From: a virus
Length of the DNA stretch: 64,000 nt
Reading direction: 5' to 3' (one strand)
Virus record (IMG/VR): IMGVR_UViG_3300043313_001352
Location: 32,001 to 96,000 of that record
The notes below the pieces were generated by a model. The model did no database searches and had not been told where the DNA came from. It saw only the letters and a list, made by a program, of their open reading frames with translations. The position numbers were made by a program, and so were the translations under genes. This document shows, piece by piece, positions 2,327-44,442 of the stretch; the stretch's first letter is position 1; every line of letters begins with the position of its first letter.

Positions 2327-2360
2327 GAAGACCCCCGACCCGTGAGGGCCGGGGGTCTTC
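2327..2360. terminator. hairpin terminator, possibly bidirectional
   Basis: GAAGACCCCCG...CGGGGGTCTTC 11-bp stem. Confidence 0.7.
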
Positions 2361-2424
2361 CCATGCCGTGCCATGCCCAACCAAGCCCCGCCTGACCGAG
2401 CCAGACCCCGCCATGCCTCGCCGC
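2361..2424 (-). repeat. single GGY-NN pentamer unit (orphan guide-like element)
   Basis: 12 consecutive perfect GGY-NN pentamers on the minus strand. Confidence 0.8.
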
Positions 2425-14805: not shown

Positions 14806-15405
14806 ATGGACGGCATCCGGGACGGCTTCGGCGACGACCCCACCGTGGACGAGGTGCTCGCCGAGGAGGAGGAGTTCCTCGTCCGCAACGCCCGCAACGC
14901 GCTGGTCAAGAAACTGGGCCGGGGCTTCCCCGCCGGAGCCGATGAGGACGCTGTCCAGGAGGCCCGCATTGCGGCCTGGCAGTCCTGGGAGAAGAACCAC
15001 AACCGGGCCTACCTGAACATCGCCGCCCGGCAGCGGCTGATGCAGCACGTCTACCGCGACCAGTGGTTCGGCACCAAGCCGACGGCGCACGAGAAGGACC
15101 CGATCCGCCGGGCCAACCGGGACAGCTTCGATGACCCGGACAACGGCATTGACGTTCTGGTCAACTCGGCGACCTGGGTCGACCAGGTGCTGCTCGCCTA
15201 TCACCACGGCGAGATCCACCAGGCGCTGGACGCACTGACGTTTACGCAGCGCGAGTACGTGGTGCTGCGCTTCTGGGGCGGGATGTCGGACACCGAGATC
15301 GCTGCGCACCAGGGGAAGACACGGGGCGGAGTGTCTTCGGTGTGGCACAAGACCATCCGCCCGGCGCTCGCCTCTCAGTTGGAGTTGTTGAGCGACCTGT
15401 GCTAA
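14806..15405 (+). CDS. RNA polymerase sigma-70 (ECF-like) factor
   Basis: Region 2-like EDAVQEARIAAW; region 4-like ALDALT..QREYVVLRFWGGMSDTEIA...T-x-GGV. Confidence 0.8.
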   Translation: MDGIRDGFGDDPTVDEVLAEEEEFLVRNARNALVKKLGRGFPAGADEDAVQEARIAAWQSWEKNHNRAYLNIAARQRLMQHVYRDQWFGTKPTAHEKDPIRRANRDSFDDPDNGIDVLVNSATWVDQVLLAYHHGEIHQALDALTFTQREYVVLRFWGGMSDTEIAAHQGKTRGGVSSVWHKTIRPALASQLELLSDLC

Positions 15406-22446: not shown

Positions 22447-22907
22447 GGTTGTGACTCCTATGTGCCAATCTGTTCAACGGTTGGTGTGATCTTATCATAG
22501 TCAAACCAGGGTCGTACATGCAAACCAGATTCATACCAGTAGATCAAGCAGGAGACGGCCCAGGAGACGGCCCAGCCTGCGCCCAGCCTGAACCATTCAC
22601 GCAACTCATAGAACGGAATGCTTTTTGGGGGTGCCGCGTGACGAGCTGAGGCGACAAGGATCCGCGCCGACACCCTTTTTGGCTGGGCCACCACTGGGCC
22701 GTCCACTGCTTCATCACTGCTTTGATGTCCGTTTCCTCCCTAGTCACCTGTGCCTCCCGACCCCGTCCTCCCCCACCGTCGCTGACCCCTTAGAACCCGC
22801 ACTCCAGATTGCTCGTCTGAACCCTTAGTCCCCACACTTCCAAGTGGTTGTCCCCGTCCACCATCTCTAGGGATTCACCTGTCGGACGATGTGCTACTCA
22901 GATCCCC

Positions 22908-23435
22908 TCAGACCAGCCGCACCCCGACGAACACCCTCGCCTTCCCGTCCCACGTCGCACCCGCCGCCAGCAGGTGCTCGCGCAGCACCTCGCGCTTCAT
23001 CCGCAGACTTCCCGGCAGCTCCCGGAACCTCTCGCGCTCCGTGAACGCCAGCCAGGTCGCGAACGACACCTCCACGTCCCTCGGCGCCACGGTGTCCCCC
23101 TCCGGCCCCGTCCTCCCGGTCACCTCCACGCACGCCTCCCCCCACGCGCGCACCACCGGCTCCACCTCGGCCCGCCACTTCTCCTCGCGCGTCACCGCGC
23201 CGGGCACCGGCACCGTGTCGACGTGCACGTGCGTGATCCGCCACGCCCCCGGTCGCCCCAGCCAGGACTCGCGCTGGGTCTGGCTCATCAGCAGGAACCG
23301 CCCGAGTGCGGCCTGCCACTCCGCCCCGTACCGGGGCTCGGCCTTCCCCTCCGCGACCGCTGCGTCCCAGCACAGCCCCCAGCCCGCCAGCGCCTTGCTC
23401 AACCTCGCCGTCCCCACCATCTCAGCCGTCTCCAT
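22908..23435 (-). CDS. stand-alone paralogue of the primase-helicase C-terminal (winged-helix-like) domain
   Basis: WGEACVEVTG..DT....D..VSFATW...TWDGKARVFVGVRLV aligns with WSGACLEVTG..DT....D..VSFNTW...TYDKKRKLMVGGRLV of 30348..32633. Confidence 0.7.
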   Translation of the reverse strand: METAEMVGTARLSKALAGWGLCWDAAVAEGKAEPRYGAEWQAALGRFLLMSQTQRESWLGRPGAWRITHVHVDTVPVPGAVTREEKWRAEVEPVVRAWGEACVEVTGRTGPEGDTVAPRDVEVSFATWLAFTERERFRELPGSLRMKREVLREHLLAAGATWDGKARVFVGVRLV

Positions 23436-23520
23436 CGTCGCTCTCCTCCACGTTGATTGGTGATTCACCTGTTGCCAACCTACCGAGCCCGCCCCGCTGG
23501 GCTAGGCTCTCCCCGCCCTC

Positions 23521-23871
23521 GGCAAGTCGGGGCAAGGCTTGGCTTGGCATGGCAGGGCAGGGCTCCCCCTAGGCCAGGCGCGGTCAGGCAGGGTTCGGCT
23601 CGGTCAGGCAGGGCAGGTTCGGCAGGGCGCGGTGTGCTGAGGTCCGGCGTGGCGAGGTGGGGCAAGGCACGGCAGGCTCGGAGCGGCTCGGCACGGCTAG
23701 GCATGGTGAGGCAGGCACACCCAGGCGGGGTCCGGCAGGGCACGTCAGCATTTGGCAGGGCATGGCAGGTGGGGCAAGGCTCGGTGTGGCCTGGCGGCGT
23801 ACGGCATGGTTGGGTTCGGTTCGGCGTGGCAGGCACGGTTAGGCATGGCAAGGTGAGGCGTGGCGAGGCGC
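23521..23871 (+). repeat. second GGY-NN pentamer mini-array (about 5-6 units)
   Basis: GGCAA GGCTT GGCTT GGCAT GGCAG...; GGCAGGY punctuation at about 23612, 23671, 23710, 23764, 23828. Confidence 0.9.
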
Positions 23872-23919
23872 GAGGGAACCCGCTCGCTCGTCGTCAGGGT
23901 GGTGTGTACTCTTCTCCCC

Positions 23920-24324
23920 ATGGGAGGGAACAAGCGCGGGTCGGTATTACGGTCACTGACCTGCCACTACTGCGGTGAGCGGGCCGAGGGCGAAGACCAC
24001 ATCGTGCCGCGAGCCGACCTGCCCAAGCCGCTCTCGAAGCTGCCCTACTGGTTCCGCGCCAACGACGTCGTTCCGGCCTGCCAGCCCTGCAACGGCGACA
24101 AGGCGTGGTTCAGGTCCGACTGCGTCTGCTCGCACTGCACATGGGCTTGGTCCACCGCTCACGCGCTGTTCCTGCCCGAGGGCTACACCGAGCGCGGTTG
24201 GGTCGCCATCCAGCAGAACCCGACCATCGCGATGCCGCTCGCGGTCCCGCGCCCCGACCGGTCCGCCTACCCAGGCACCCGCGAAGGCCGGTCCGACCGC
24301 GAGTCCCAGGCCCTGTCGAACTAG
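23920..24324 (+). CDS. HNH endonuclease
   Basis: CHYCG....EDHIVP...NDVVPACQPCNGDK. Confidence 0.85.
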   Translation: MGGNKRGSVLRSLTCHYCGERAEGEDHIVPRADLPKPLSKLPYWFRANDVVPACQPCNGDKAWFRSDCVCSHCTWAWSTAHALFLPEGYTERGWVAIQQNPTIAMPLAVPRPDRSAYPGTREGRSDRESQALSN

Positions 24325-24462
24325 TCTCCGCCCGCCGCTCCGACTAGCTCGGCAGGGCCGCTCGCGCTCTACCTAGACCACCCCGTCCCCCTGGCGCGAG
24401 CGTTGGTCAAATGAGAGAGTGCCAACTCATTCACCTGTCACTCACCTCCTGGGAGTTCCTCC

Positions 24463-24942: not shown

Positions 24943-25407
24943 CTACCGCCCACCCCAGGCCCGGTTCACCTCGTCGAGCACCGTCCACGGCGCCCGCCCG
25001 GCCTCGTTCGAGGTGAACCGGACGATCCGCCAGCCCAGCGCCTCGATCTCGCGCTGCCGCTTGTGGTGCTTGGCCCAGGCTTCCTGCGGCCCGTGGAAGG
25101 CCAGCCCGTCGATCTCGATCCCGAGCTTGCGCCCGGCCAGCCCGAAGTCCAGGTAGTAGCGCCCCACGCGCACCTGACGACGCAGCCCGGCCAGTGCAGG
25201 CCACCGGTCCGGCGATGCCGTGTACGCCGCCCACAGCACGTCCTCGGACGGCCCCACCCACGGTCCGCCGACCTTCTTCTCCCCCGCCCCGCCAGCCGTC
25301 CCAGCCACAGTGAACCGGCCGTCCTTGCCCCGCGCCCGCCCCCGCACCGGGGTCCCCCGGACCAGGATCATCCGGGGAGTCCGCACCACCCTGCGCCGCC
25401 GCGCCAT
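24943..25407 (-). CDS. DUF559/Vsr-like PD-(D/E)xK endonuclease
   Basis: RRQ..VGRYYLDF...IEIDG..FH...R...I...GWRIVRF. Confidence 0.85.
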   Translation of the reverse strand: MARRRRVVRTPRMILVRGTPVRGRARGKDGRFTVAGTAGGAGEKKVGGPWVGPSEDVLWAAYTASPDRWPALAGLRRQVRVGRYYLDFGLAGRKLGIEIDGLAFHGPQEAWAKHHKRQREIEALGWRIVRFTSNEAGRAPWTVLDEVNRAWGGR

Positions 25408-30031: not shown

Positions 30032-30351
30032 GTCTCCCCGTTGCCCTCGTGCTGGCGTGGACCGTCCTCCTCGACGCGCCGGAACGTCACCGGCGTGCCG
30101 AGCAGCTTGTAGATCTCCTGGGCCTTCTCGGCGTCGATCGCCACCCACAGCCACTTGTCCCCCCACGGCGACATCATCTCGATGTGGAAGTCCTCGCCGA
30201 CGATCCCGGCCAGCACGTCGACGGCCTCACCGTCACCGGTGGCCTCCTCCAGCTGCTCCAGCACCTCGGCGTCCAGCTCGGGTTCCTTGCCGTAGTCCTC
30301 GGCGCCCTCCTGGGTGGTCACCATCACCACCGGCTCGTTCATCTCGCTCAT
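30028..30351 (-). CDS. acidic hypothetical protein
   Basis: ATGA coupling to the helicase gene. Confidence 0.7.
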   Translation of the reverse strand: MSEMNEPVVMVTTQEGAEDYGKEPELDAEVLEQLEEATGDGEAVDVLAGIVGEDFHIEMMSPWGDKWLWVAIDAEKAQEIYKLLGTPVTFRRVEEDGPRQHEGNGET

Positions 30352-32633
30352 ACCAGCCTCCCGCCAACCATCAGCTTCCTCTTCTTGTCGTAGGTCATCC
30401 GCAGTGTTCGGCAGGTGTTCTCCAGCTCGTCGCGGGTCGCTGCCTTGCTGAGCTTGGGTGCATCCTCACCGGCGAACATCACCCAGGTGTTGAACGAGAC
30501 CACCATGTCGGCGTGGGTGAAGGTGTCCAGCGCACTGCCGGTGACCTCCAGGCAGGCGCCGGACCACTTCGCGAAGATGTTGTGCTTGGCCCGCTCGTCG
30601 GTGGCGGTCTCGGCCCACGCCGAGGTGTCGCCCCAGCCGTGCTCGGCCCACGCCTTGGCACCCTCCAGCATCCAGGCCAGCGCCAGTCGTAGCTCGGCCG
30701 GTTGCCGGGTGATCTGTGACCTCAGGTCGGGGATCACCTCGCGCTCGCTCATCGAGTACTCGAAGGGGAAGAACTTCAGCCGCCGCCAGACCGCCTCGTC
30801 GGGGATCTCCAGCGCGTGGTTGGTGGAGAGCCACAGCGAGCACTCCGGCACGAAGGAGATCTCCTCCTTGCCGTAGGGCAGCCGCCCGGACAGCGAGTCG
30901 CCCCCGGACAGGCTCTTCAGCATCGGCAGGTTGACCTCGGCCTTCATCGGCGGCTCGGAGAAGGTCAGCACCCGCTGGCCCACGATCGCGGCCACCGAGA
31001 AGTCCGGGTTGCCCTTGTCCCCGAACAGCAGGTTGTGGCTCATCGCCTTGCCGTAGGAGCCGACCACCTTGAGCAGGATCTCGCTGAACGTCGACTTGCC
31101 CGAGCGGGTCGGGCCTTTCAGCACGAAGACCGCGTCCACGTCGCCGTCCACACCGCGGCGTCCGTACAGCGAGGCTCCGGCCGCGCGTTGCAGCAGCCGG
31201 AGGTTGTCGGGTCCCATCTGGTGTTCCAGGTCGGTGACGAACTTGTGGAACCAGCGTCCTTGCCCACCCTCGGAGGCCACGTCCCACAGGTGCTTGAACT
31301 CCCCACCTGGCCCGTCGTCGTACGGCGCCCCCAACGCCTTCGAGACCCGCCTGGTCCGGGCGTCCAGCTCGCATTCACCTGTCCGCAGATTCACCAGCCG
31401 CCCGATCCCGGCCGTCACCGGCAGCCCGGCGATCCAGCCCTCGGCGTCCCAGTTCAAGGCCGAGGGCACCAGCACCCGCTCGTCGGACTGCAGGTCGCCC
31501 AGGATCGAGGCGGTGGGTCGCTGCTGGGCCTTGCCCGCCCACTTGAACGCGTCCTTGCTCAGAGTGTCCTTGCCGTCCAGCTTGGACTGCCTGCCCTCGG
31601 CCAGGTGGATGTCGGGCATGTCCATGCAGTAGGACTTCAGCATCGTCTCGCTGCGCTCCGGCCCACCCCAGCCGGACTCGGTCCAGACCCGCCAGGACAA
31701 CCCTGGTGTGTAGAGCATCTTGTCGCCGTGGGTGTCGATCAGCCGCCGTACATCGCCGCGTCGGGTGTAGGTCCGCGGATCCCCGCCCACCAGCGGAGTC
31801 CCAGGACGTGTCCGCCACGGGTCGTCCCGGTCGATCCGGGCGACGTCGTCGACCAGCCCGGCCGCGGTCAGACGCATCATCAGCGCCGAGGTGGCATTGG
31901 TCAGTCCGGCGATCGGGTCGACCAGCACCTTCGAGCCGCCGGACCACTCATAGCCTGCCCTGGGCGCCAGTACCGCGAACGCGCCGTCACCGAGCACCCA
32001 GACCCCGGTGACCAGCTCGATCTGGGTGCGGCCACCCATCACCGCCTCGGACTCCCCGATCCGGAAGAACCAGTGCTGGCCCCCCGACGGAGTGGTCTGG
32101 GTGAGCACGTGCCCGGTCATCTTGAACCGCGCCCTGGTCATCTCGGCGTGCTCGCCGACGTCGAGGACCACGATCTTGGACTCCGAGCCGGTCAGCACCG
32201 CCAGCCCGATCCACCCGGCCTTGACCCTCAAGTCCGAGGCGGGGAAGACCCGCTCGACGTCTTCTTCGACGCGGGCCACGCCCAGTCCGGAGACCAGGTG
32301 CTTGCCCCAGGTGGTGCAGGCTTCGCCGTCCTTGCAGCAGCAGCCGACCAGCCCGGAGGCTGCGGCGCCCGGCACCGCGTCCACCGGCATCCAGACCGGC
32401 GCGATCGCCCAGCCGAACTGGGTGATGTAGCCGCGTGCCCAGCGCCACAGGTTCTTGACCGCGTCCGGGATCGGTGGCTCGGCGCCCGCCGGTGGCACCC
32501 CCGGAGGAGTCGGCGGACGTGGCGGGGTCGGCGGGCCACCCACCACACCACTCTCACCAGGCGCCGGTGGCGGTCCTGGTGTTGAGGGCATCCCCACGCC
32601 GGGCGGGGGCGGTGCGGCGCTGTCCACGCTCAC
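30348..32633 (-). CDS. bifunctional primase-polymerase / SF3 (D5-like) helicase
   Basis: Prim-pol motifs C-x-C...C...GKH, VVLDV, TPSGG-x-H; helicase GPTRSGKST, LKSLSGGD, STNH, WRRL; GTGA-coupled start. Confidence 0.85.
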   Translation of the reverse strand: MSVDSAAPPPPGVGMPSTPGPPPAPGESGVVGGPPTPPRPPTPPGVPPAGAEPPIPDAVKNLWRWARGYITQFGWAIAPVWMPVDAVPGAAASGLVGCCCKDGEACTTWGKHLVSGLGVARVEEDVERVFPASDLRVKAGWIGLAVLTGSESKIVVLDVGEHAEMTRARFKMTGHVLTQTTPSGGQHWFFRIGESEAVMGGRTQIELVTGVWVLGDGAFAVLAPRAGYEWSGGSKVLVDPIAGLTNATSALMMRLTAAGLVDDVARIDRDDPWRTRPGTPLVGGDPRTYTRRGDVRRLIDTHGDKMLYTPGLSWRVWTESGWGGPERSETMLKSYCMDMPDIHLAEGRQSKLDGKDTLSKDAFKWAGKAQQRPTASILGDLQSDERVLVPSALNWDAEGWIAGLPVTAGIGRLVNLRTGECELDARTRRVSKALGAPYDDGPGGEFKHLWDVASEGGQGRWFHKFVTDLEHQMGPDNLRLLQRAAGASLYGRRGVDGDVDAVFVLKGPTRSGKSTFSEILLKVVGSYGKAMSHNLLFGDKGNPDFSVAAIVGQRVLTFSEPPMKAEVNLPMLKSLSGGDSLSGRLPYGKEEISFVPECSLWLSTNHALEIPDEAVWRRLKFFPFEYSMSEREVIPDLRSQITRQPAELRLALAWMLEGAKAWAEHGWGDTSAWAETATDERAKHNIFAKWSGACLEVTGSALDTFTHADMVVSFNTWVMFAGEDAPKLSKAATRDELENTCRTLRMTYDKKRKLMVGGRLV

Positions 32634-34012
32634 GGGTCCGGGGTCCCGTGCATCGTCGTGGTGAACGGGCTCTCCAGGGCCTCCAGCTCCCGCTCCCGGC
32701 CCCACTGCTCCATCCAGCTTGTCTCGTCCCGCCATGGTCCCGAGAGCCTCCCCACCACCACGTCACTCCCGTCTTCACCTGCGCTGATACGACGACGTGC
32801 CTCGTCCACATCACCTGCGCAGGCGAGGTCGACCCAGGCACGCCACTTGCTGATCACCCCGACGCCAGCAGCCGTGCCCCGACGCCCAGAGCCCCGTAGT
32901 CCGGACGCGAACCCGGTCGCGGGGGAGTCCGAGTAGACCACCAATAGGTTCGGCATGTCGGCGTAGACCACGGCGGATCGCTCACCGGCGTCGAACCCGC
33001 TGCTTGAGCCCGCGTCGTCGAGCTTCCCCGGACGCTCCCAGATCTGTTCACGTCCGGCGGGGTCCGGGCCGGACACGCACCGCCACCCGAAGGGGACCAG
33101 CACGTCCTCCCAGCCCAGCACTTCATCCGCGATCCTGTCCAGGTCCCCGAGCACTGGGCCAACGCTGGTCCACTCCCCACCAGCCTCATCCGCGCCACCG
33201 GCCCCGTCGGTGTAACCAGGGGAGTAGCGCTCCAGCAGCCAGTCCAGGAAGTCGCCCTCGCCGGGCCAGTCGTCGGTAACGTCAGTGACCTGCGCGGCCA
33301 GAGCGTCAGTGACGTTTGCCAGGCTGAGACGCCCGTCCCAGCTCTTGGACGACCCTGGCCAGCGGATCACACCCGAGGGGCGGGCGGCATCCTCGTCGGG
33401 TCCGGCGCGCCAGTTCAGGGTGCCCGGCATCCGCATCACCCGCGTGGTGTCCCAGACCCGGTCGATCTTCTTGGTCGAGGTCTCCCCGACCCAGCCGACG
33501 AGTGCCCGGACCAGGCGCGAAGCCTCCACCCCTGGCACCGGTTCCCTCAAGGGAACCCAGTACTGCAGCCCCCAGCCGGAGCCGATCACGAGACTCGCCT
33601 CCGCGAGCACGGGTCCCAGGCACATGTCCACGATGTCCACGGCCTCACCGAGGTGGCTGAAGTAGTCGTCGCCCTCGCGTCCGGGCGCCTGGCAGTCGAC
33701 GTCGAGCCACAGCGCTCCGGCGTGTCCACGCAGCGCTGCGCCGCCGCGCGGGTAGGGACGGCTCTTCGAGCCGTGCGGCTTCTCGGTGAGCCCGACGCAG
33801 CCCATGTAGATCTCGCGGCCCTGCTCGGACCACCAGGCCAGCTGCTTGATCGTGTCCGGGGCCAGCAGGGTGGCCACGTCCCAGTGCTGGGCGTGCCACT
33901 TCCCGCGTGGGCTCTTGATCGAGACCTCGACCAGCTCACGTCCAGCCGCCCATCCGTAGAGCCCCATGAGCACCCTGCGGGCGCTCTCAGGCGTGTGGTC
34001 CACCTCGGTCAT
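32630..34012 (-). CDS. RepB-like AEP DNA primase domain protein
   Basis: ALWLDVD, SG-x-GLQ-x-W, D..RVMRMPGTLN. Confidence 0.8.
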   Translation of the reverse strand: MTEVDHTPESARRVLMGLYGWAAGRELVEVSIKSPRGKWHAQHWDVATLLAPDTIKQLAWWSEQGREIYMGCVGLTEKPHGSKSRPYPRGGAALRGHAGALWLDVDCQAPGREGDDYFSHLGEAVDIVDMCLGPVLAEASLVIGSGWGLQYWVPLREPVPGVEASRLVRALVGWVGETSTKKIDRVWDTTRVMRMPGTLNWRAGPDEDAARPSGVIRWPGSSKSWDGRLSLANVTDALAAQVTDVTDDWPGEGDFLDWLLERYSPGYTDGAGGADEAGGEWTSVGPVLGDLDRIADEVLGWEDVLVPFGWRCVSGPDPAGREQIWERPGKLDDAGSSSGFDAGERSAVVYADMPNLLVVYSDSPATGFASGLRGSGRRGTAAGVGVISKWRAWVDLACAGDVDEARRRISAGEDGSDVVVGRLSGPWRDETSWMEQWGRERELEALESPFTTTMHGTPDP

Positions 34013-39117: not shown

Positions 39118-39588
39118 TCAGCTGGCTTCACCCGCGCTGGCACTGAGGTCGGTGAGCACCTCGTTGGCGAACTCCGCCATGTGCTCGTAGCGCTTCTTGA
39201 AGGATCGCCAGTCACGGCGCATCTGGCGCAGCATCAGCTCGCGCTGGATCGGGTCCGTGATGACCTCCTCGATCGGCTCGTACGCCGAGGTCGGGCTGCC
39301 GTCTTCTCCACGGGTGACCCAGAACGCCCGGAGGTCGGCGCGCTTGTTGCCGACGTCGGCCTTGTACTTCACGCGCAGCAGGTTCCCGGCCTGGTGCAGC
39401 CGCCACTTGTGCGCGGCCACGTCGTCACGCCAGTCGAACCGGTGGTGCAGTGGGTGGTCAGGATTCGAGGCTTCCTCGACCACGACCTCTGGGGTCAGCA
39501 GCCCGCGCTTGTCTCGGATCGCCAGCAGCACGTCACGCAGGTTCTCACCAGCGCTGGGCACTGGGGTCTCGTCGGTTCCGTTCGTCAT
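39118..39588 (-). CDS. accessory protein of the RAMP/GGY-NN locus
   Basis: LTPEVVVEEA-x-NPDHPLH..F-x-W-x-D..AA..WRL-x-QA..L; GGAGGG RBS; directly downstream of the array on the same strand. Confidence 0.8.
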   Translation of the reverse strand: MTNGTDETPVPSAGENLRDVLLAIRDKRGLLTPEVVVEEASNPDHPLHHRFDWRDDVAAHKWRLHQAGNLLRVKYKADVGNKRADLRAFWVTRGEDGSPTSAYEPIEEVITDPIQRELMLRQMRRDWRSFKKRYEHMAEFANEVLTDLSASAGEAS

Positions 39589-39620: not shown

Positions 39621-42600
39621 ACCTCACCACACCCGTCTCGTCAGTAGCCGCGCCGGGCCACGCCGAGCCGTGCCCAACCATGCCTTGCCAATCCGCGCCT
39701 GCCGCACCTTGCCGCACCCACCTATCCATGCCGGTCCCAGCCTCACCACGCCTGCCTGGCCGCGCCACGGCGCGCCTTGCCCGGCCATGCCTTGCCAACC
39801 CCGCCTGCCTTGCCCGGCCGCGCCTAGCCTTTCCACACCGCGCCTGCCCCGCCATGCCGAACCTGGTCACGCCTCGCCCAGACGGGCCTGCCAAGCCCAG
39901 CCCAGCCAAACCTTGCCTTGCCGCACCTGGCTGTGCCACGCCTGCCTGGCCGCGCCACACCCAGTCGTGCCAGGTCCCGCCTAGCCATTCCCTGCCTGCC
40001 TCGCCGTGCCTGACCGCACCCCACCATGCCTAGCCCCACCGCGCCTGCCATGCCGTACCAGACCTTGCCGAGCCAACCGGGGCTGCCTTGCCAAGCCCAC
40101 CGCACCTAGCCCTCCGCGCTGCGCCTGTCCATGCCTAGCCCTGCCTGCCTCGCCATGCCGTACCGGACCCTGCCGGACCGGACCACTTCGGAACACACCT
40201 AGCCATGCCCTGCCGAGCCTGCCAAGCCACGCCCCACCGGACCCGACCACGCCTAACGCCACCTGGCCCCGTCAGTCCGTACCTAGCCACGCCTGCCTTG
40301 CCGTGCCGTGCCGGGCCTAACCCCACCCGACCATGCCTTGCCTGCCGCGCCGCGCCCACCCGGCCATGCCTAGCCCCAGGTCACCTCGCCCAGCCTGCCT
40401 CGCCCAACCCGGCCATGCCTAGCCCTGTACGCCGCGCCACGCCTGCCGGACCAAGCCGCGCCTGACCGAACCAAGCCCCGCCGAGCCCACCTCGCCTGCC
40501 GGACCTGGCCGTGCCTGGCCTAGCCGCGCCCATCCATGCCCCGCCTGCCAAGACCCGCCGTGCCGTGCCATCGGTACCGAGCCCTACCAAACCACGCCTG
40601 CCGCGCCGTGCCAGACCGCTGCCGTGCCGACCACGCCTAACCTTGCCCCGCCTGCCGTGCCATGCCCAGTCGCACCCTGCCGCGATCGCCATGCCCAGCC
40701 GTGCCGTTCCTGCCATGCCGGACCTCGCCCTCCCGGCCATGTCGTGCCCTGCCCCGCCTGCCCTGCCGAGACTGGCCGAGCCGTGCCATGCCTTGCTCAC
40801 CTGGCCGTGCCGAGCCCGGACCCGCCTGCCTTGCCATGCCGGGCCGAGCCGTGCCTACCTGACCTAGCCCTGCCTGCCCAGCCACAGCTTGCCGTGCCTT
40901 GCCATCCGCGCCTCGCCTGCCGCACCCCACCTAGCCTGACCGAGTCATGCCCCGCCTGCCTCGCCTTGCCAGGACATGCCTTGCCACACCGCGGTGCACC
41001 AACGCCTCGCCTGCCAAGCCTTGCCTTGCCGTGTGCTGCCAAGCCGGGCCTGGACATGCCCACACGTGCCCTGCCGACCCGAACCACACCGAGCCATGCC
41101 TGCCGCGCCACGCCTTGCCTTGCCATGTCAACCGGGCCTGGCCCTGCCGCCCGCGCCTTGCCACGCCTGCCCGACCACACCACGCCTTGACCTACCCACG
41201 ATGCCCCGCCTGCCGGGCCTAGCCCTGCCTTGCCAGACGATCCTGGCCGCGCCTGCCCTGCCTTGAGCGCCTTGCCTCGACCCGCCGTGCCAGGACTGCC
41301 GGACCGTACCGTGCCCAGCCTCGCCACGCCGTACCTAGCCGCACCTGCCGGACCGTGCCTTGCCCAGCCACTCCATCCGTACCTAGCCTGCCGAGCCGTG
41401 CCTTGTCACGCCACGTCCCGCCCGGACTCGCCCCACCGAGCCATGCCTGCCCAGCCGAACCACTCCTAGCCTGGCCATACCCTGCGCTGCCTGCCGTACC
41501 GAGCCACGCCGTACCGCGGAAGCCACGCCGATGCCTTGCCCCGCCTGCCGAGCCGTTCCTGGCCATGTCCCGCCGCGCCGTGTGCTGCCCCGCCTAGCCC
41601 CGCCTGCCGCGCCATGCCTTGCCGACCTTGCCTCGCCCAACCGTGCCAGACCTGCCCCGCCGCACCTAGCTGCACCGCACCAAGACCCGCCTGCCGCGCC
41701 TGGCCGAACCTTGCCATCCTTGCCCTCCGCGCCGCACCGAGACACGCCTGCCCAGCCCCGTCGTGCCATGCCTGGCCGCGCCCCACCTGACCAAGCCTGC
41801 CGAGCCGGGCCGCACCATCCTCGCCATCCGGTGCCGTGCCCCGCCTTGCCTGCCGCGCCGCGCCCTGCCAAACCTAGCCAAGTCGTGCCCTGCCATGACG
41901 AGCCGTGCCGGACCTGCCGTACCTCGCCACGCCCAGCTCCGCCGAACCTCCCGAGCCCAGCCATGCCTGCCGAGCCGAGCCGCGCCCCGCTTCGCCCTGC
42001 CAGGCCCGACCTTGCCATGCCTGCCACACCCGGCCTTGCCACATACTGCCGCGCCCACCGATCCTGGCCGCGCCCAGCCATGCCTGCCCGGCCCCGCCGC
42101 ACCTCGCCATGCGCTGCGATACCACGCCACGCCCTCCGCGCCTGCCTGGCTCAGCCACACCGTCCCGTGCCACGTATCCCAGACCACGCCATGCCTGCCT
42201 CACCTAGCCCTGCCAAGCCCGGCCAATCCTGGACGTGCCGGACCGAGCCAAGCCTGCCGGACCACGACGTCCATGCCCTGCCGCTGCCATGTGATGCCCT
42301 CCGCACCGAGCCACGCCTGCCTGACCGCACCAGACCCGGCCGCACCCTGCCTAGACCACCGCGCCATGCCTGCCGTGCCGAGCCAGCCCTTGCCTCGTGA
42401 AGCCCAGCCCCGCCTCGCCGTGCCCAGCCAATCCGCGCCTGCCCCACCGATCCAAGCCCTGCCTTGCCTAGGCAAACCACGCCTGCCTGGCCTAGCCGGA
42501 CCAAGCCGAACCCCGCCTATCCCCGACCCGCCTGCCGGACCGCACCTTGCCGTCCGCGCCGCGCCCAACGATGCCCAGCCACGCCTGCCGAACCGTGCCA

Positions 42601-43622
42601 CGCCGTACGCCCCAAGCCGGACCCAACCTGCCCCGCCTCGCCTAGCCCAGTCTCGCCATGCCCAGCCTGGCCGTGCCCCGTTCACCGCGCCTGCCGAGCC
42701 TCGCCCCACCGACCTAGCCAACCCAGACCTAGCCTGCCGCGCCTCGCCCAGACAAACCATCCTCGCCGGACCGCCCGCACCTCGCTGCGCCAAGCCTGCC
42801 GCGCCACGTCATGCCACAGCTCGCCGCCCGTACCAAGCCTCGCCTGCCCCACCTCACCTAGCCAGGACGCGCCGGACAGCACCACGCCTCGCCACACCTT
42901 GCCTGCCGGGCCGCACCGAACGATGCCGAAAGCCACCAAGCCCAATCATCCGAGCCGCACCACGCCTGCCTTGCCCGGCCGGACCGGACCGCGCCGTACC
43001 CGCCCCTGACAAACCCTGCCTAGCCCTGCCAGCTCCCTGCCATGCCTGGCCTGCCAGACCACGCCCCTCCGAACCTGGCCACACCATGCCCTGCCTCGCC
43101 TGCCGTGCCCGACCCTGCCAACGACGCCTAGCCCTGACACACCATGCCCTGCCTGCCACGCCGTGCCCAACCAAGCCCGGCCGGTCCCTGCGATGCCTTG
43201 CCATGCCAAGCCTGCCGTGACCCGCCTTGCCACGCCCCGCTTGCCCCGACGCACCTGGCCTTGCCTAGCCTGCCGAACCTAGCCGAGCCACACCATGCGT
43301 AGCCCCGCCGGACCAACCCGAGCCCCGCCCTGCCTGCCGCGCCTGGCCGTTCCCAGCCCACCAAGCCACACCGTCCCGGCCAAGCCTGGCCGTGCCAAGC
43401 CTGCCCAACCGCGCCTGGCCAGACCAAGCCAAGCCGTGCCATCCGCGCCTTGCCGACCACTCCGTGCCGCGCCCCGCCTGCCGGGCCTGGACTCGCCGTG
43501 CCATGCCTAGACCTGCCTGCCATGCCGCGACGACCGGGCCAAGAATCCCATGCCCCGCCCCGCCTAGCCTGCCCCGCCGAGCGATGCCCTGCCGCGCCTA
43601 GCGTTGCCATCCCGTGCCTGCC
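39621..43622 (-). repeat. ~4-kb GGY-NN pentamer array, about 70-75 unique units delimited by GGCAGGC; putative guide-RNA array
   Basis: 5-nt periodicity of GGC/GGT plus a variable dinucleotide, reset every ~40-65 nt by GGC-A-GGC; ORFs in all frames are low-complexity. Confidence 0.95.
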
Positions 43623-43635
43623 GTGTCCGGACGTG

Positions 43636-43678
43636 GGACGAGGCAGGACGCACCCCCCAGTGGCGCCCTGCCTCGTCC
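43636..43678 (-). other. strong hairpin between the RAMP gene and the array
   Basis: 12-bp perfect stem GGACGAGGCAGG / CCTGCCTCGTCC. Confidence 0.8.
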
Positions 43679-43693: not shown

Positions 43694-44377
43694 TTACTTG
43701 ACCTCGACCGAGCGCGTCGGGTCGATCATGAAGGTGCCCATGTCGCCCTTCTTCTCCGGGCGCCACTCACCGACGCCGACACCCAGGCCACCGGCCTCGA
43801 TCAGCGAGAGCACGCTCTCGCGGGTCAGCATCGACTTCACGTACGTCACCTCCAGCACCGTCGACCACTCGGTGAACTGCGGCCGGTAGCGCAGGTCGGT
43901 GCCGCCGTTGCCGACGCGCACGACGTCCTCGCGCATGATCGGCTCGCCCTCGATCCGGACCATCATCTGGCCCTCGGTCTTGGACATCTCGCCGGAGAAG
44001 AACAACGTCTGCCGGAGGCTGACCATGGTCACGCTCTTGTCGAAGAACCTCGCAGCGCTGACGGTCGCGGCCTTGAACGCGATCGAGGGGAACCCGTAGC
44101 CGCCGTCGTCCATCTTGTAGGCCGCGGCCTCGTAGTCGCCCTCGGGGTCCTTGGGCGCCTTCGGGCTCTTGCGGCCCTGCATCGCATCCAACATCTGCCT
44201 CTTCGCCTTCTCGCTGAACTTGTGCATGATCAACGGCGCGGAGCCGACGATCGGGATCAGCAGCGTCTCGGTGCCGATCCGGGAGATCTCGATCGCCGGT
44301 GCGCTCTCGTCCTCGGCGGGAGGAGGAGTCGCTGCGGTCTTCTTGGCTGCGGTCTTCTTGGCAGGCTTCGTGGCCAT
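43694..44377 (-). CDS. stand-alone Cas7/RAMP-like RNA-binding protein
   Basis: IVG-x-APLIMH strand, GFPSIAFKAA..SAA (compare RAMP IP-x-S-x-(L/F)KG), RP-x-F..W, and C-terminal Gly-rich loop GGLGVGVGEWRP...G-x-F. Confidence 0.75.
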   Translation of the reverse strand: MATKPAKKTAAKKTAATPPPAEDESAPAIEISRIGTETLLIPIVGSAPLIMHKFSEKAKRQMLDAMQGRKSPKAPKDPEGDYEAAAYKMDDGGYGFPSIAFKAATVSAARFFDKSVTMVSLRQTLFFSGEMSKTEGQMMVRIEGEPIMREDVVRVGNGGTDLRYRPQFTEWSTVLEVTYVKSMLTRESVLSLIEAGGLGVGVGEWRPEKKGDMGTFMIDPTRSVEVK

Positions 44378-44402
44378 GTGTCGTTCCGTCCTTGAGGTTG
44401 TG

Positions 44403-44442
44403 TTCCCCACCTTGGGGAATCAGGTGACGGCAACGTAGCACA
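44403..44442 (-). promoter_or_regulatory. putative promoter for the RAMP-array unit
   Basis: Minus strand TGTGC-TACGTT resembles the early promoter TGTGC-TAAACT at 15398; downstream hairpin TTCCCCA-3nt-TGGGGAA. Confidence 0.5.

What the first reader, a model, noticed from the sequence alone, without database searches (positions are those of the whole stretch)
23521..23871. Second, orphan GGY-NN mini-array directly upstream of an HNH nuclease gene
Seen: same pentamer grammar and GGCAGGY punctuation (about 5-6 units), on the plus strand ~16 kb from the main array, with no RAMP gene beside it. It lies divergent from 22908..23435 and ~50 nt before the HNH ORF. Inference: a trans-acting guide cassette for the RAMP protein expressed separately; the HNH link could be a nuclease partner, a mobility aid or chance.
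Basis: partly seen in the sequence, partly recalled or inferred. Interest (0 to 1): 0.8.

Follow-up and report, generated by a model that had tools for sequence, protein, structure and literature searches.

The report
Second VIPR guide-RNA array beside HNH
The 350-base stretch is a real second guide-RNA array of the phage's VIPR system (a CRISPR-like RNA-guided DNA silencer first described in 2026), and one of its guides is aimed at rival phages' versions of the HNH nuclease gene next door, so it is an instructive new example of a known kind of system.

Summary
Window 23521-23871 (+) holds about 67 GGY-NN pentamers in strict 5-nt phase (lag-5 count 51 against 2.8±1.6 in shuffles). Five GGCAGGY register shifts divide it into seven candidate guides.

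The grammar is that of published VIPR systems (bioRxiv 10.64898/2026.04.26.720920), in their "staggered array" form. This scan has already met VIPR in at least 21 other genomes.

The 114-kb uncultured soil phage has three array loci:
- one vipr gene (43697-44377, minus), which folds as a Cas7/Csm3-like RAMP;
- one accessory gene;
- a 4-kb main array with 71 marks;
- this mini-array;
- a single guide at 2358-2422.

The HNH link is not one of the three options it offered. Guide 4 (23768-23831) matches the catalytic DH-motif codons of the HNH family under the published 1-nt-skip rule and is wobble-aligned. It scores 20-21/24 on relatives' alleles and 19/24 on the phage's own gene. Shuffled guides never exceed 17/24, and other skip lengths give at most 15/24.

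A syntenic relative carries a homologous guide with the same self-below-non-self pattern. Arrays lie beside the HNH gene in six related contigs. No targets were found for the other six guides.

Verdict: a new member of a known kind, of moderate interest.

The parts
23521..23871 (+). Second VIPR vrRNA array (staggered type), seven candidate guides
   Evidence: 5-nt phase of GGY and GGCAGGY marks. Homologous arrays in L127, L128 and L129 keep GGY better than NN: 0.84 vs 0.68 (L127), 0.85 vs 0.69 (L129) and 0.67 vs 0.48 (L128).
23768..23831 (+). Guide 4: 12 pentamers plus a terminal GGCA; NN string GG AA TC GT CT GG AC AT TG TC TC GT
   Evidence: Under the 1-nt skip rule it matches HNH-family genes 19-21/24. 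Shuffled guides reach at most 17/24 in 300 trials, and skip 0, 2 or 3 give at most 15/24.
23989..24023 (+). Near-cognate site of guide 4 in the phage's own HNH gene (codons G-E-D-H-I-V-P-R-A-D-L-P, catalytic DH motif). Skipped bases are the codon third positions.
   Evidence: 19/24, the unique best match in the 114-kb genome (next best no more than 16). Shuffled guides reach 19 or more anywhere in the genome in 5 of 500 trials.
23920..24324 (+). HNH endonuclease gene (134 aa), a packaging-type family
   Evidence: CxxC..DH..N..CxxCN..K motif. The family profile hits PDB 4h9d HNH endonuclease (E 2.5e-4). 7 of 17 members hit Pfam HNH. More distant homologues lie beside a TerL homologue.
22908..23435 (-). 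Divergent upstream gene (175 aa), no family hit; partial paralogue of the C-terminus of the 795-aa ORF 30348-32735
   Evidence: tblastn E 3e-5. Absent from syntenic L128, present in L129.
23462..23472 (+). GATTCACCTGT box 49 nt before the array; candidate promoter or regulatory box, function unknown
   Evidence: Three of the window's four copies lie at 22872, 23462 and 24428, all on +. It is conserved before the L129 array, but lies after the L128 array.
43697..44377 (-). vipr: the single RAMP (Cas7-like) protein gene presumed to load all three guide loci
   Evidence: phrog_4652; AlphaFold pLDDT 86; Foldseek hits to Csm3/Cas7; G-loop GVGEWRP aligns with GVGDWRP of the Felixounavirus homologue; single copy.
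39640..43646 (-). Main staggered vrRNA array, about 4.0 kb, 71 GGCAGGY marks (43622 to 39703)
   Evidence: No guide is shared with the mini-array.
39118..39588 (-). Candidate vap accessory gene (156 aa, phrog_15946 family)
   Evidence: The same family follows vipr plus array in many IMG/VR loci and in Donkeykong gp50. The model has pLDDT 88, but only weak winged-helix-like PDB rows.
2330..2422 (-). Third locus: a single vrRNA of 12-13 pentamers (2358-2422) followed by a GC-rich hairpin (2330-2357)

Best explanation
The stretch is a second array of VIPR guide RNAs (vrRNAs) of the 'staggered' kind. It is used in trans by the phage's only Vipr protein, which is encoded 20 kb away.

Proposed mechanism. 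The plus strand is transcribed and cut at or near the GGCA|GG junctions into seven RNAs of roughly 40-64 nt. One Vipr protomer binds each pentamer. The GGY bases are flipped out and held by the G-loop and thumb. The NN pairs are presented to pair with double-stranded target DNA while every third target base is skipped. This forms an R-loop that blocks transcription.

Guide 4 is directed at the catalytic DH-motif codons of the packaging-type HNH endonuclease gene of related, rival phages. The phage's own HNH gene, 150 bp downstream, differs at the first codon of the site (Gly GGC instead of the family's usual Thr ACC). It therefore scores lower than the rivals' alleles.

Shown here: the grammar, the RAMP fold, conserved GGY-reading residues, the target match, its dependence on skip 1, self scoring below non-self, and recurrence in relatives.

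Shown only in the literature, for SUSP1 and P. fulva systems: RNA processing, protein binding, triplex R-loop formation and silencing.

Inferred: that all of this holds in this phage, and that the other six guides have targets not present in the data I could search.
For: - Periodicity and punctuation are identical to the main array.
- Vipr has a RAMP fold: pLDDT 86, with top Foldseek hits all Csm3/Cas7/Cmr4 at E 7e-7 to 1e-4.
- Its YRP and GVGEWRP segments align with YRP and GVGDWRP of Felixounavirus CL1_20. These positions correspond to R138, D177, W178 and R179, which read GGY in SUSP1 Vipr.
- There is one vipr gene and three arrays in the genome.
- More than 120 IMG/VR contigs carry the same arrays next to the same protein family.
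- Published VIPR rules are given.
- Guide 4 scores 19/24 on its own HNH gene, the unique best hit in the genome. Shuffled guides reach 19 or more in 5 of 500 trials.
- Guide 4 scores 20-21/24 on 11 homologous HNH genes. Skip 0, 2 or 3 give at most 15/24, and shuffles reach at most 17/24.
- The match is in codon phase and ends at the GGCAGGY marks.
- The syntenic relative L128 has a homologous guide scoring 20/22 on other alleles and 17/22 on its own.
- Arrays lie beside the HNH gene in L127-L131 and L134.
Against: - There is no expression or binding data for this phage.
- No promoter or terminator was detected by the simple scan.
- Six of the seven guides have no identified target.
- Even the best rival alleles leave three half-mismatches (21/24). 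No perfect target was found in IMG/VR or GTDB genomes.
- The self versus non-self gap is only 1-2 of 24 positions. The 0.8 cut-off is a search convention, not a measured binding threshold.
- The relatives come from short metagenome contigs, so it is unknown whether they carry vipr.
Confidence: 0.8

Rival explanations
1. Autoregulation. Guide 4 acts on the phage's own HNH gene (a 79% match may suffice) to hold this nuclease off until late infection. On this view the array is a local regulator rather than a weapon.
For: The best own-genome match of any guide lies 150 bp from the array, in the adjacent gene. Published VIPR acts as a transcriptional repressor on either strand.
Against: Other alleles match better than the phage's own in both phages that carry such a guide. 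Published systems show no self-targets at 0.8 or above and report self scores below non-self scores as autoimmunity avoidance. The other six guides have no own-genome match above shuffled level.
Confidence: 0.12
2. Decoy or counter-VIPR cassette. The array's RNAs mainly load rivals' Vipr proteins and redirect them, as satellite solo vrRNAs do, rather than arming the phage's own Vipr.
For: Solo vrRNAs with a redirecting role are documented (abstract). The array lies far from vipr.
Against: The phage has its own vipr, and the main array has identical punctuation. Guide 4 aims at a conserved catalytic core of a phage gene, not at a repetitive host site.
Confidence: 0.07
3. HNH is a nuclease effector (vap-like) that works with the guides, cutting DNA marked by Vipr-vrRNA complexes.
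For: Some VIPR types carry nuclease vap genes, including HNH domains. The array and the HNH gene are adjacent in several relatives.
Against: The vipr gene already has a conserved neighbour of another family. More distant members of this HNH family lie beside TerL without arrays, as packaging HNH proteins do. HNH orientation relative to the array flips between relatives. A guide aimed at the family's own catalytic codons fits a target better than a partner.
Confidence: 0.05
4. The stretch is a non-functional remnant, slippage product or structural leader (for example a G-rich 5' UTR of HNH) with no guide role.
For: No promoter or terminator was detected. The fold of the 3' flank is not better than shuffles (z +1.2). 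Several pentamers are degenerate.
Against: GGY is maintained while NN varies between relatives. Guide 4's target match is specific to skip 1. The array is on the opposite strand to HNH in L130, L131 and L134, so it is not simply an HNH leader.
Confidence: 0.03

Closest known systems
VIPR systems with staggered vrRNA arrays (bioRxiv 10.64898/2026.04.26.720920, fig. S18)
   Same: A minimal RAMP protein of about 20-25 kDa, an adjacent accessory gene, and GGY-NN pentamer guides. Neighbouring guides overlap by one base (GGCAG/GGC, read as GGCAGGC). The element is phage-encoded, follows the 1-nt-skip wobble-aligned target code, and has no self-target at 0.8 or above.
   Different: Three separate guide loci serve one vipr gene. 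The main array is about 4 kb with 71 marks, the longest of the 159 arrays I measured (the next is 1.6 kb). The host is an uncultured soil actinophage. I could not assign the VIPR type (I-VII) without the authors' tree.
Type II VIPR of Escherichia phage SUSP1 and Felixounavirus relatives (same preprint; structures in 10.64898/2026.04.26.720927)
   Same: The C-terminal thumb and G-loop segment aligns at 36% identity over 55 aa (E 5e-11 to CL1_20). The GGY-reading Arg, Trp and Arg are kept and Asp becomes Glu. Guides lie both upstream and downstream of the genes.
   Different: SUSP1 guides are separate RNAs of about 100 nt, each with a 3' pseudoknot tail, and use GGT more than GGC. Here the guides abut without tails. 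The accessory proteins are unrelated by BLASTP.
Solo or orphan vrRNAs of satellites and VIPR-null phages (bioRxiv 10.64898/2026.10.15.759431)
   Same: Guide loci lie away from any vipr gene. Targets sit in catalytic cores and are wobble-aligned. Self-match scores are lower than non-self scores.
   Different: This phage is VIPR-positive. The array holds seven guides rather than 1-2. The identified target is a packaging-type HNH gene, not vipr, vrRNAs or a satellite recombinase. The array sits directly beside the phage's own diverged copy of the target.
Class 1 CRISPR-Cas (Cas7/Csm3 backbone with crRNA)
   Same: RAMP fold with thumb and G-loop, a protein filament along a guide RNA, and periodic base flipping.
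   Different: There are no identical repeats separating spacers, no cas1/cas2, no contiguous guide, and a period of 5 rather than 6. It is not a CRISPR array.

Membership tests
VIPR system | Vipr protein: small stand-alone RAMP (RRM core, G-loop, thumb) | tested here: met
   The model has pLDDT 86 and pTM 0.78. There are 112 PDB matches at E no more than 0.001, and the top matches are all Csm3/Cas7/Cmr4. No Pfam hit; phrog_4652.
VIPR system | Residues that read GGY in SUSP1 Vipr (thumb R138; G-loop D177, W178, R179) | tested here: met
   YRP and GVGEWRP align with YRP and GVGDWRP of Felixounavirus CL1_20, whose numbering fits the published residues. Asp is replaced by Glu. The G-loop G..E.R and the thumb Arg are invariant across 19 family members; the G-loop Trp is Gly or Tyr in a majority of members. 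The mapping onto SUSP1 numbering is my inference.
VIPR system | vrRNA made of at least 4 (typically 9-16) GGY-NN pentamers, with GGY conserved and NN variable | tested here: met
   Seven runs of 7-12 pentamers. The lag-5 count is 51 against 2.8 expected. 15 of the 16 dinucleotides occur at NN. GGY is more conserved than NN between homologous arrays (the alignment of repeats is imperfect).
VIPR system | Staggered array: the end of one vrRNA overlaps the start of the next by 1 nt | tested here: met
   Five GGCAGGY junctions, all gaps equal to 4 mod 5. The 12-NN footprint of guide 4 on HNH genes runs exactly from one junction to the next.
VIPR system | Targets follow the 1-nt skip rule (identity at least 0.8), usually with skipped bases at codon third positions | tested here: met
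   Met for guide 4 only: 0.83-0.875 on 11 HNH homologues, in codon phase, with skips 0, 2 and 3 at background. The other six guides have no target in the data reachable here.
VIPR system | No self-target at 0.8 or above | tested here: met
   No credible own-genome target. Across the 35 guides, own-genome best scores match shuffled guides (mean 0.73 vs 0.74, maxima 0.93 vs 0.89), and the few short guides that reach 0.8 do no better than their own shuffles, for example the 8-NN trailing mini guide at 0.81. The one match that exceeds its shuffles is guide 4 on the HNH gene at 19/24 = 0.79, just below the cut-off.
VIPR system | Accessory vap gene next to vipr | tested here: inconclusive
   A conserved 140-190-aa family (F-x-W-D-D..A-A motif) follows vipr plus array here, in many IMG/VR loci and in Donkeykong. 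The fold has pLDDT 88 but no PDB match at E no more than 0.001; only weak winged-helix rows appear. It is unrelated to the Felixounavirus accessory protein.
VIPR system | RNAs are transcribed, processed and bound by Vipr; the complex represses targets | not testable with these tools
   Needs small-RNA sequencing, pull-down and reporter assays.
HNH endonuclease (phage packaging type, HK97 gp74-like) | HNH motif with CxxC pairs, DH, N and CN..K | tested here: met
   C15, C18, D26, H27, C54, C57, N58 and K61 are invariant in 17 homologues. Pfam HNH E 0.017 for this protein, and 7 of 17 members reach as low as 4.7e-6. PDB 4h9d E 2.5e-4.
HNH endonuclease (phage packaging type, HK97 gp74-like) | Gene adjacent to the terminase genes | tested here: not met
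   In this genome TerL is at genome 2556-4061 and HNH at genome 55920-56324. Adjacency holds only for the more distant homologues L137 and L138.
CRISPR array | Identical direct repeats of 20-40 nt separating unique spacers, with cas1/cas2 nearby | tested here: not met
   The only conserved unit is GGY. No Rfam CRISPR repeat or other family hit.

The most novel reading that the evidence does not exclude
The mini-array and the HNH gene form a linked 'silence-and-rescue' cassette. A guide represses the catalytic-core codons of the HNH packaging nuclease of related phages. It is inherited together with a recoded HNH allele that escapes that guide (Thr to Gly here, Thr to Ser in relative L128, at the first codon of the site). 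In mixed infections and recombinants the pair would behave like a toxin-antidote selfish element. This would explain why array and HNH stay adjacent while their relative orientation changes.
Probability: 0.25. Interest if true: 0.6.

Novelty: new member of a known kind. Interest (0 to 1): 0.35.

Why it matters
It extends the newly described VIPR systems to an uncultured high-GC soil phage with an unusually large guide repertoire spread over three loci. It also gives a concrete, testable natural target. The target is the active-site codons of a phage packaging-type HNH nuclease, with the phage's own allele one codon away from being targeted. That supports the published idea that the gapped code is aimed at catalytic cores that cannot escape by synonymous change. 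It suggests, but does not show, that guides and resistant alleles of their targets may travel together. A practical point also follows: vrRNA arrays are currently annotated as hypothetical protein genes in deposited actinophage genomes.

Tried and rejected
- Before finding the literature I considered three ideas: a TRAP-like ring-binding RNA (11 triplets per 54 nt), G-quadruplex tracts, and a terminase pac site. I dropped all three once the RAMP fold and the published code explained the grammar.
- Rfam gave no hit in 22800-24400 or in four related loci.
- The promoter/terminator scan found none. The fold of the 3' flank is no better than shuffles.
- I scanned the phage's own genome with 35 guides at skips 0-3. 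Nothing exceeded shuffled guides except guide 4.
- Mini-array guides are not copies of main-array guides, and no two main-array guides are alike.
- IMG/VR exact scans were unproductive. The 11-NN core of guide 4 gave 0 hits. The 8-NN cores of guides 1 and 3 and of the trailing guide gave 23, 2 and 17 hits, with chance-level extension and unrelated GC contents.
- A GTDB scan with a 9-NN core of guide 4 gave three hits, none in an HNH gene.
- I scanned 27 guides against 1.48 Mb of fetched loci. Only guide 4 stood out.
- A search for close HNH relatives in IMG/VR found nothing real.
- No supplementary files were held for the VIPR preprint, so the VIPR type could not be assigned.
- The fold of the accessory protein had no significant PDB match.

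Full report
**What is there**

The window is bases 32001-96000 of a single 114,034-bp, 67% GC virus record. It carries tail genes, a 4116-aa ORF and a terminase large subunit.

At 23521-23871 the plus strand is a run of GGY-NN pentamers. GGY recurs at lag 5 a total of 51 times, against 2.8±1.6 in shuffles. GGCAGGY occurs five times, at gaps of 59, 39, 54 and 64 nt.

The same grammar fills 39.64-43.65 kb on the minus strand. That array has 696 GGY, 71 marks and a modal gap of 53-54 nt.

A genome-wide scan finds only one more locus. It is a single run of 12-13 pentamers at 2358-2422 (minus), followed by a GC-rich hairpin.

The mini-array parses into seven candidate guides of 7-12 pentamers. None duplicates a main-array guide.

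**Surroundings**

- Upstream and divergent lies 22908-23435 (175 aa, no family). It is a partial paralogue of the C-terminus of the 795-aa ORF 30348-32735.
- Forty-eight nt downstream starts a 134-aa ORF with a CxxC..DH..N..CxxCN..K motif. Its family profile hits the HNH endonuclease 4h9d, and 7 of 17 members hit Pfam HNH.
- Next come a secreted-looking 159-aa ORF and a DUF559/REase_MTES_1575 endonuclease gene on the minus strand.
- No consensus promoter or terminator was found.
- A GATTCACCTGT box lies 49 nt before the array. Two more copies lie at 22872 and 24428. Their function is unknown.

**What kind of thing it is**

Their GC content ranges from 43% to 73%, and almost all hold arrays of 140-1650 nt.

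In these contigs the arrays lie directly after a gene ending in ...GIGEGRPD... or ...GIGEWRPEK... This is the family of 43694-44410 here (phrog_4652). They often also lie after the next gene, which carries an F-x-W-D-D..A-A motif (the family of 39118-39588, phrog_15946).

A literature search then showed that this is a published system, VIPR, described in bioRxiv 10.64898/2026.04.26.720920. In that system:
- a minimal RAMP protein (Vipr) binds vrRNAs made of 9-16 GGY/NN pentamers;
- the NN pairs read double-stranded DNA while skipping every third base, usually the codon wobble;
- rival phages and satellites are silenced as a result.

The preprint describes "staggered arrays", in which neighbouring vrRNAs overlap by one base. 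That is what GGCAG/GGC, read as GGCAGGC, amounts to. Companion preprints give the cryo-EM mechanism and describe solo or orphan vrRNAs.

This scan has already reported VIPR loci in at least 21 other genomes.

**Tests of membership**

- The protein of 43697-44377 folds with pLDDT 86. All its best PDB matches are Csm3/Cas7/Cmr4 RAMPs, with E from 7e-7 upward.
- Its thumb and G-loop segment aligns with the Felixounavirus CL1_20 protein (E 5e-11). It keeps the Arg of YRP and the E/D-W-R of the G-loop, which read GGY in the SUSP1 structure.
- The CL1 locus has GGTNN runs on both sides of the gene pair.
- The gene is single-copy in this genome.
- The accessory gene family is conserved, for example in Donkeykong gp50 (E 7e-19). 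Its fold has only weak winged-helix-like matches.

**Does the mini-array carry working guides?**

I converted each guide to an NN-x-NN pattern and scanned the phage's own genome, with the arrays masked, at skips 0-3. On average, real guides score like shuffled guides, so there is no self-targeting.

One guide stands out. Guide 4 (23768-23831) has a unique best hit of 19/24 at 23989-24023. This lies inside the adjacent HNH gene, antisense, with the skipped bases on codon third positions of G-E-D-H-I-V-P-R-A-D-L-P, the catalytic DH motif. Shuffled versions reach 19 or more anywhere in the genome in 5 of 500 trials. The chance that such a hit also falls in the 405-nt neighbouring gene is of order 1e-4 for the seven guides together. 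This is my estimate.

HNH homologues were found in soil metagenomes. On them the same guide scores 20-21/24, because most carry Thr (ACC or ACG) where this phage has Gly (GGC). Skips 0, 2 and 3 give at most 15/24. In 300 shuffles the maximum over all 16 genes never exceeds 17/24.

L128 is syntenic with window 17.5-26.4 kb, with up to 94% protein identity. It has an array in the same place and a homologous guide. That guide scores 20/22 on four other alleles, 19/22 on the L127/L129 allele, and only 17/22 on L128's own Ser-type allele.

So in both phages that carry an HNH-directed guide, the linked allele deviates from the family consensus at the first codon of the site and scores lowest. The same self-below-non-self pattern and the same preference for catalytic cores are reported for SUSP1-family guides.

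**The array-HNH link**

Arrays lie beside the HNH gene in six contigs:
- L127, L128 and L129, with the array upstream on the same strand;
- L130, L131 and L134, with the array on the opposite strand.

They are absent in L126 and in the short contigs of more distant homologues.

More distant homologues (L137, L138) lie next to a homologue of this phage's TerL. This is the usual place of packaging HNH proteins.

Together with the guide match, this makes "target, with a linked escape allele" more likely than "nuclease partner". I cannot exclude autoregulation of the phage's own gene.

**What failed**

No targets were found for the other six guides. The searches covered IMG/VR exact-core scans, one GTDB scan, and 1.48 Mb of fetched loci. 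The VIPR type could not be assigned.

**Verdict**

The element is a new member of a known kind. Two features deserve a specialist's attention: the size and dispersal of the guide repertoire, and a guide placed next to a diverged copy of its own target.

Noticed in passing
window 39640-43646 (minus): The main vrRNA array is about 4.0 kb with 71 GGCAGGY marks. It is the longest of the 159 arrays I measured in 120 IMG/VR contigs; the next longest are 1.6, 1.3 and 1.2 kb. No two of its 28 register-clean guides are alike.
   Followed up: partly
window 2330-2422 (minus): A single stand-alone vrRNA of 12-13 GGY-NN pentamers, immediately followed by a GC-rich hairpin. It is the third guide locus in the genome, 41 kb from vipr. 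No target was found.
   Followed up: partly
L001 7657-7965 (Gordonia phage UmaThurman gp40); L124 3499-3842 (Mycobacterium phage Donkeykong gp48): In deposited actinophage genomes the GGY-NN arrays next to the vipr homologue are annotated as hypothetical protein-coding genes. These look like mis-annotations of guide arrays.
   Followed up: partly
window 22872, 23462, 24428 (+): Three copies of a GATTCACCTGT box cluster around the mini-array. One lies before the array, one 25 nt before the start of ORF 24463, and one just past the 3' end of the minus-strand gene 22908-23435. It may be a promoter or regulator box, or a cassette boundary.
   Followed up: no
window 22908-23435 (minus) and 30351-30578: The gene divergent from the array is 33% identical over 82 aa (E 3e-5) to the C-terminal end of the 795-aa ORF 30348-32735. 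This is a detached domain copy. It is absent from the syntenic relative L128.
   Followed up: partly
window 24943-25407 (minus): A DUF559/REase_MTES_1575 (Vsr-like) endonuclease gene lies two genes after the array. It is conserved next to the HNH gene in L126, L127, L128 and L131. The array therefore sits in a small nuclease-gene island.
   Followed up: no
L099 8640-10560: In many IMG/VR contigs three arrays separate three consecutive genes (unknown gene, vipr, accessory gene). Each array is preceded or followed by a hairpin, suggesting one operon processed into mRNAs and guides.
   Followed up: no
L134 449-506 (minus): A short vrRNA-like run lies just downstream of, and opposite to, a 61%-identical HNH homologue. 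The adjacency therefore extends beyond the closest relatives.
   Followed up: no
window 14806-15405 (+): This ORF matches a phage RNA polymerase sigma-factor family (phrog_1740, E 1e-8).
   Followed up: no
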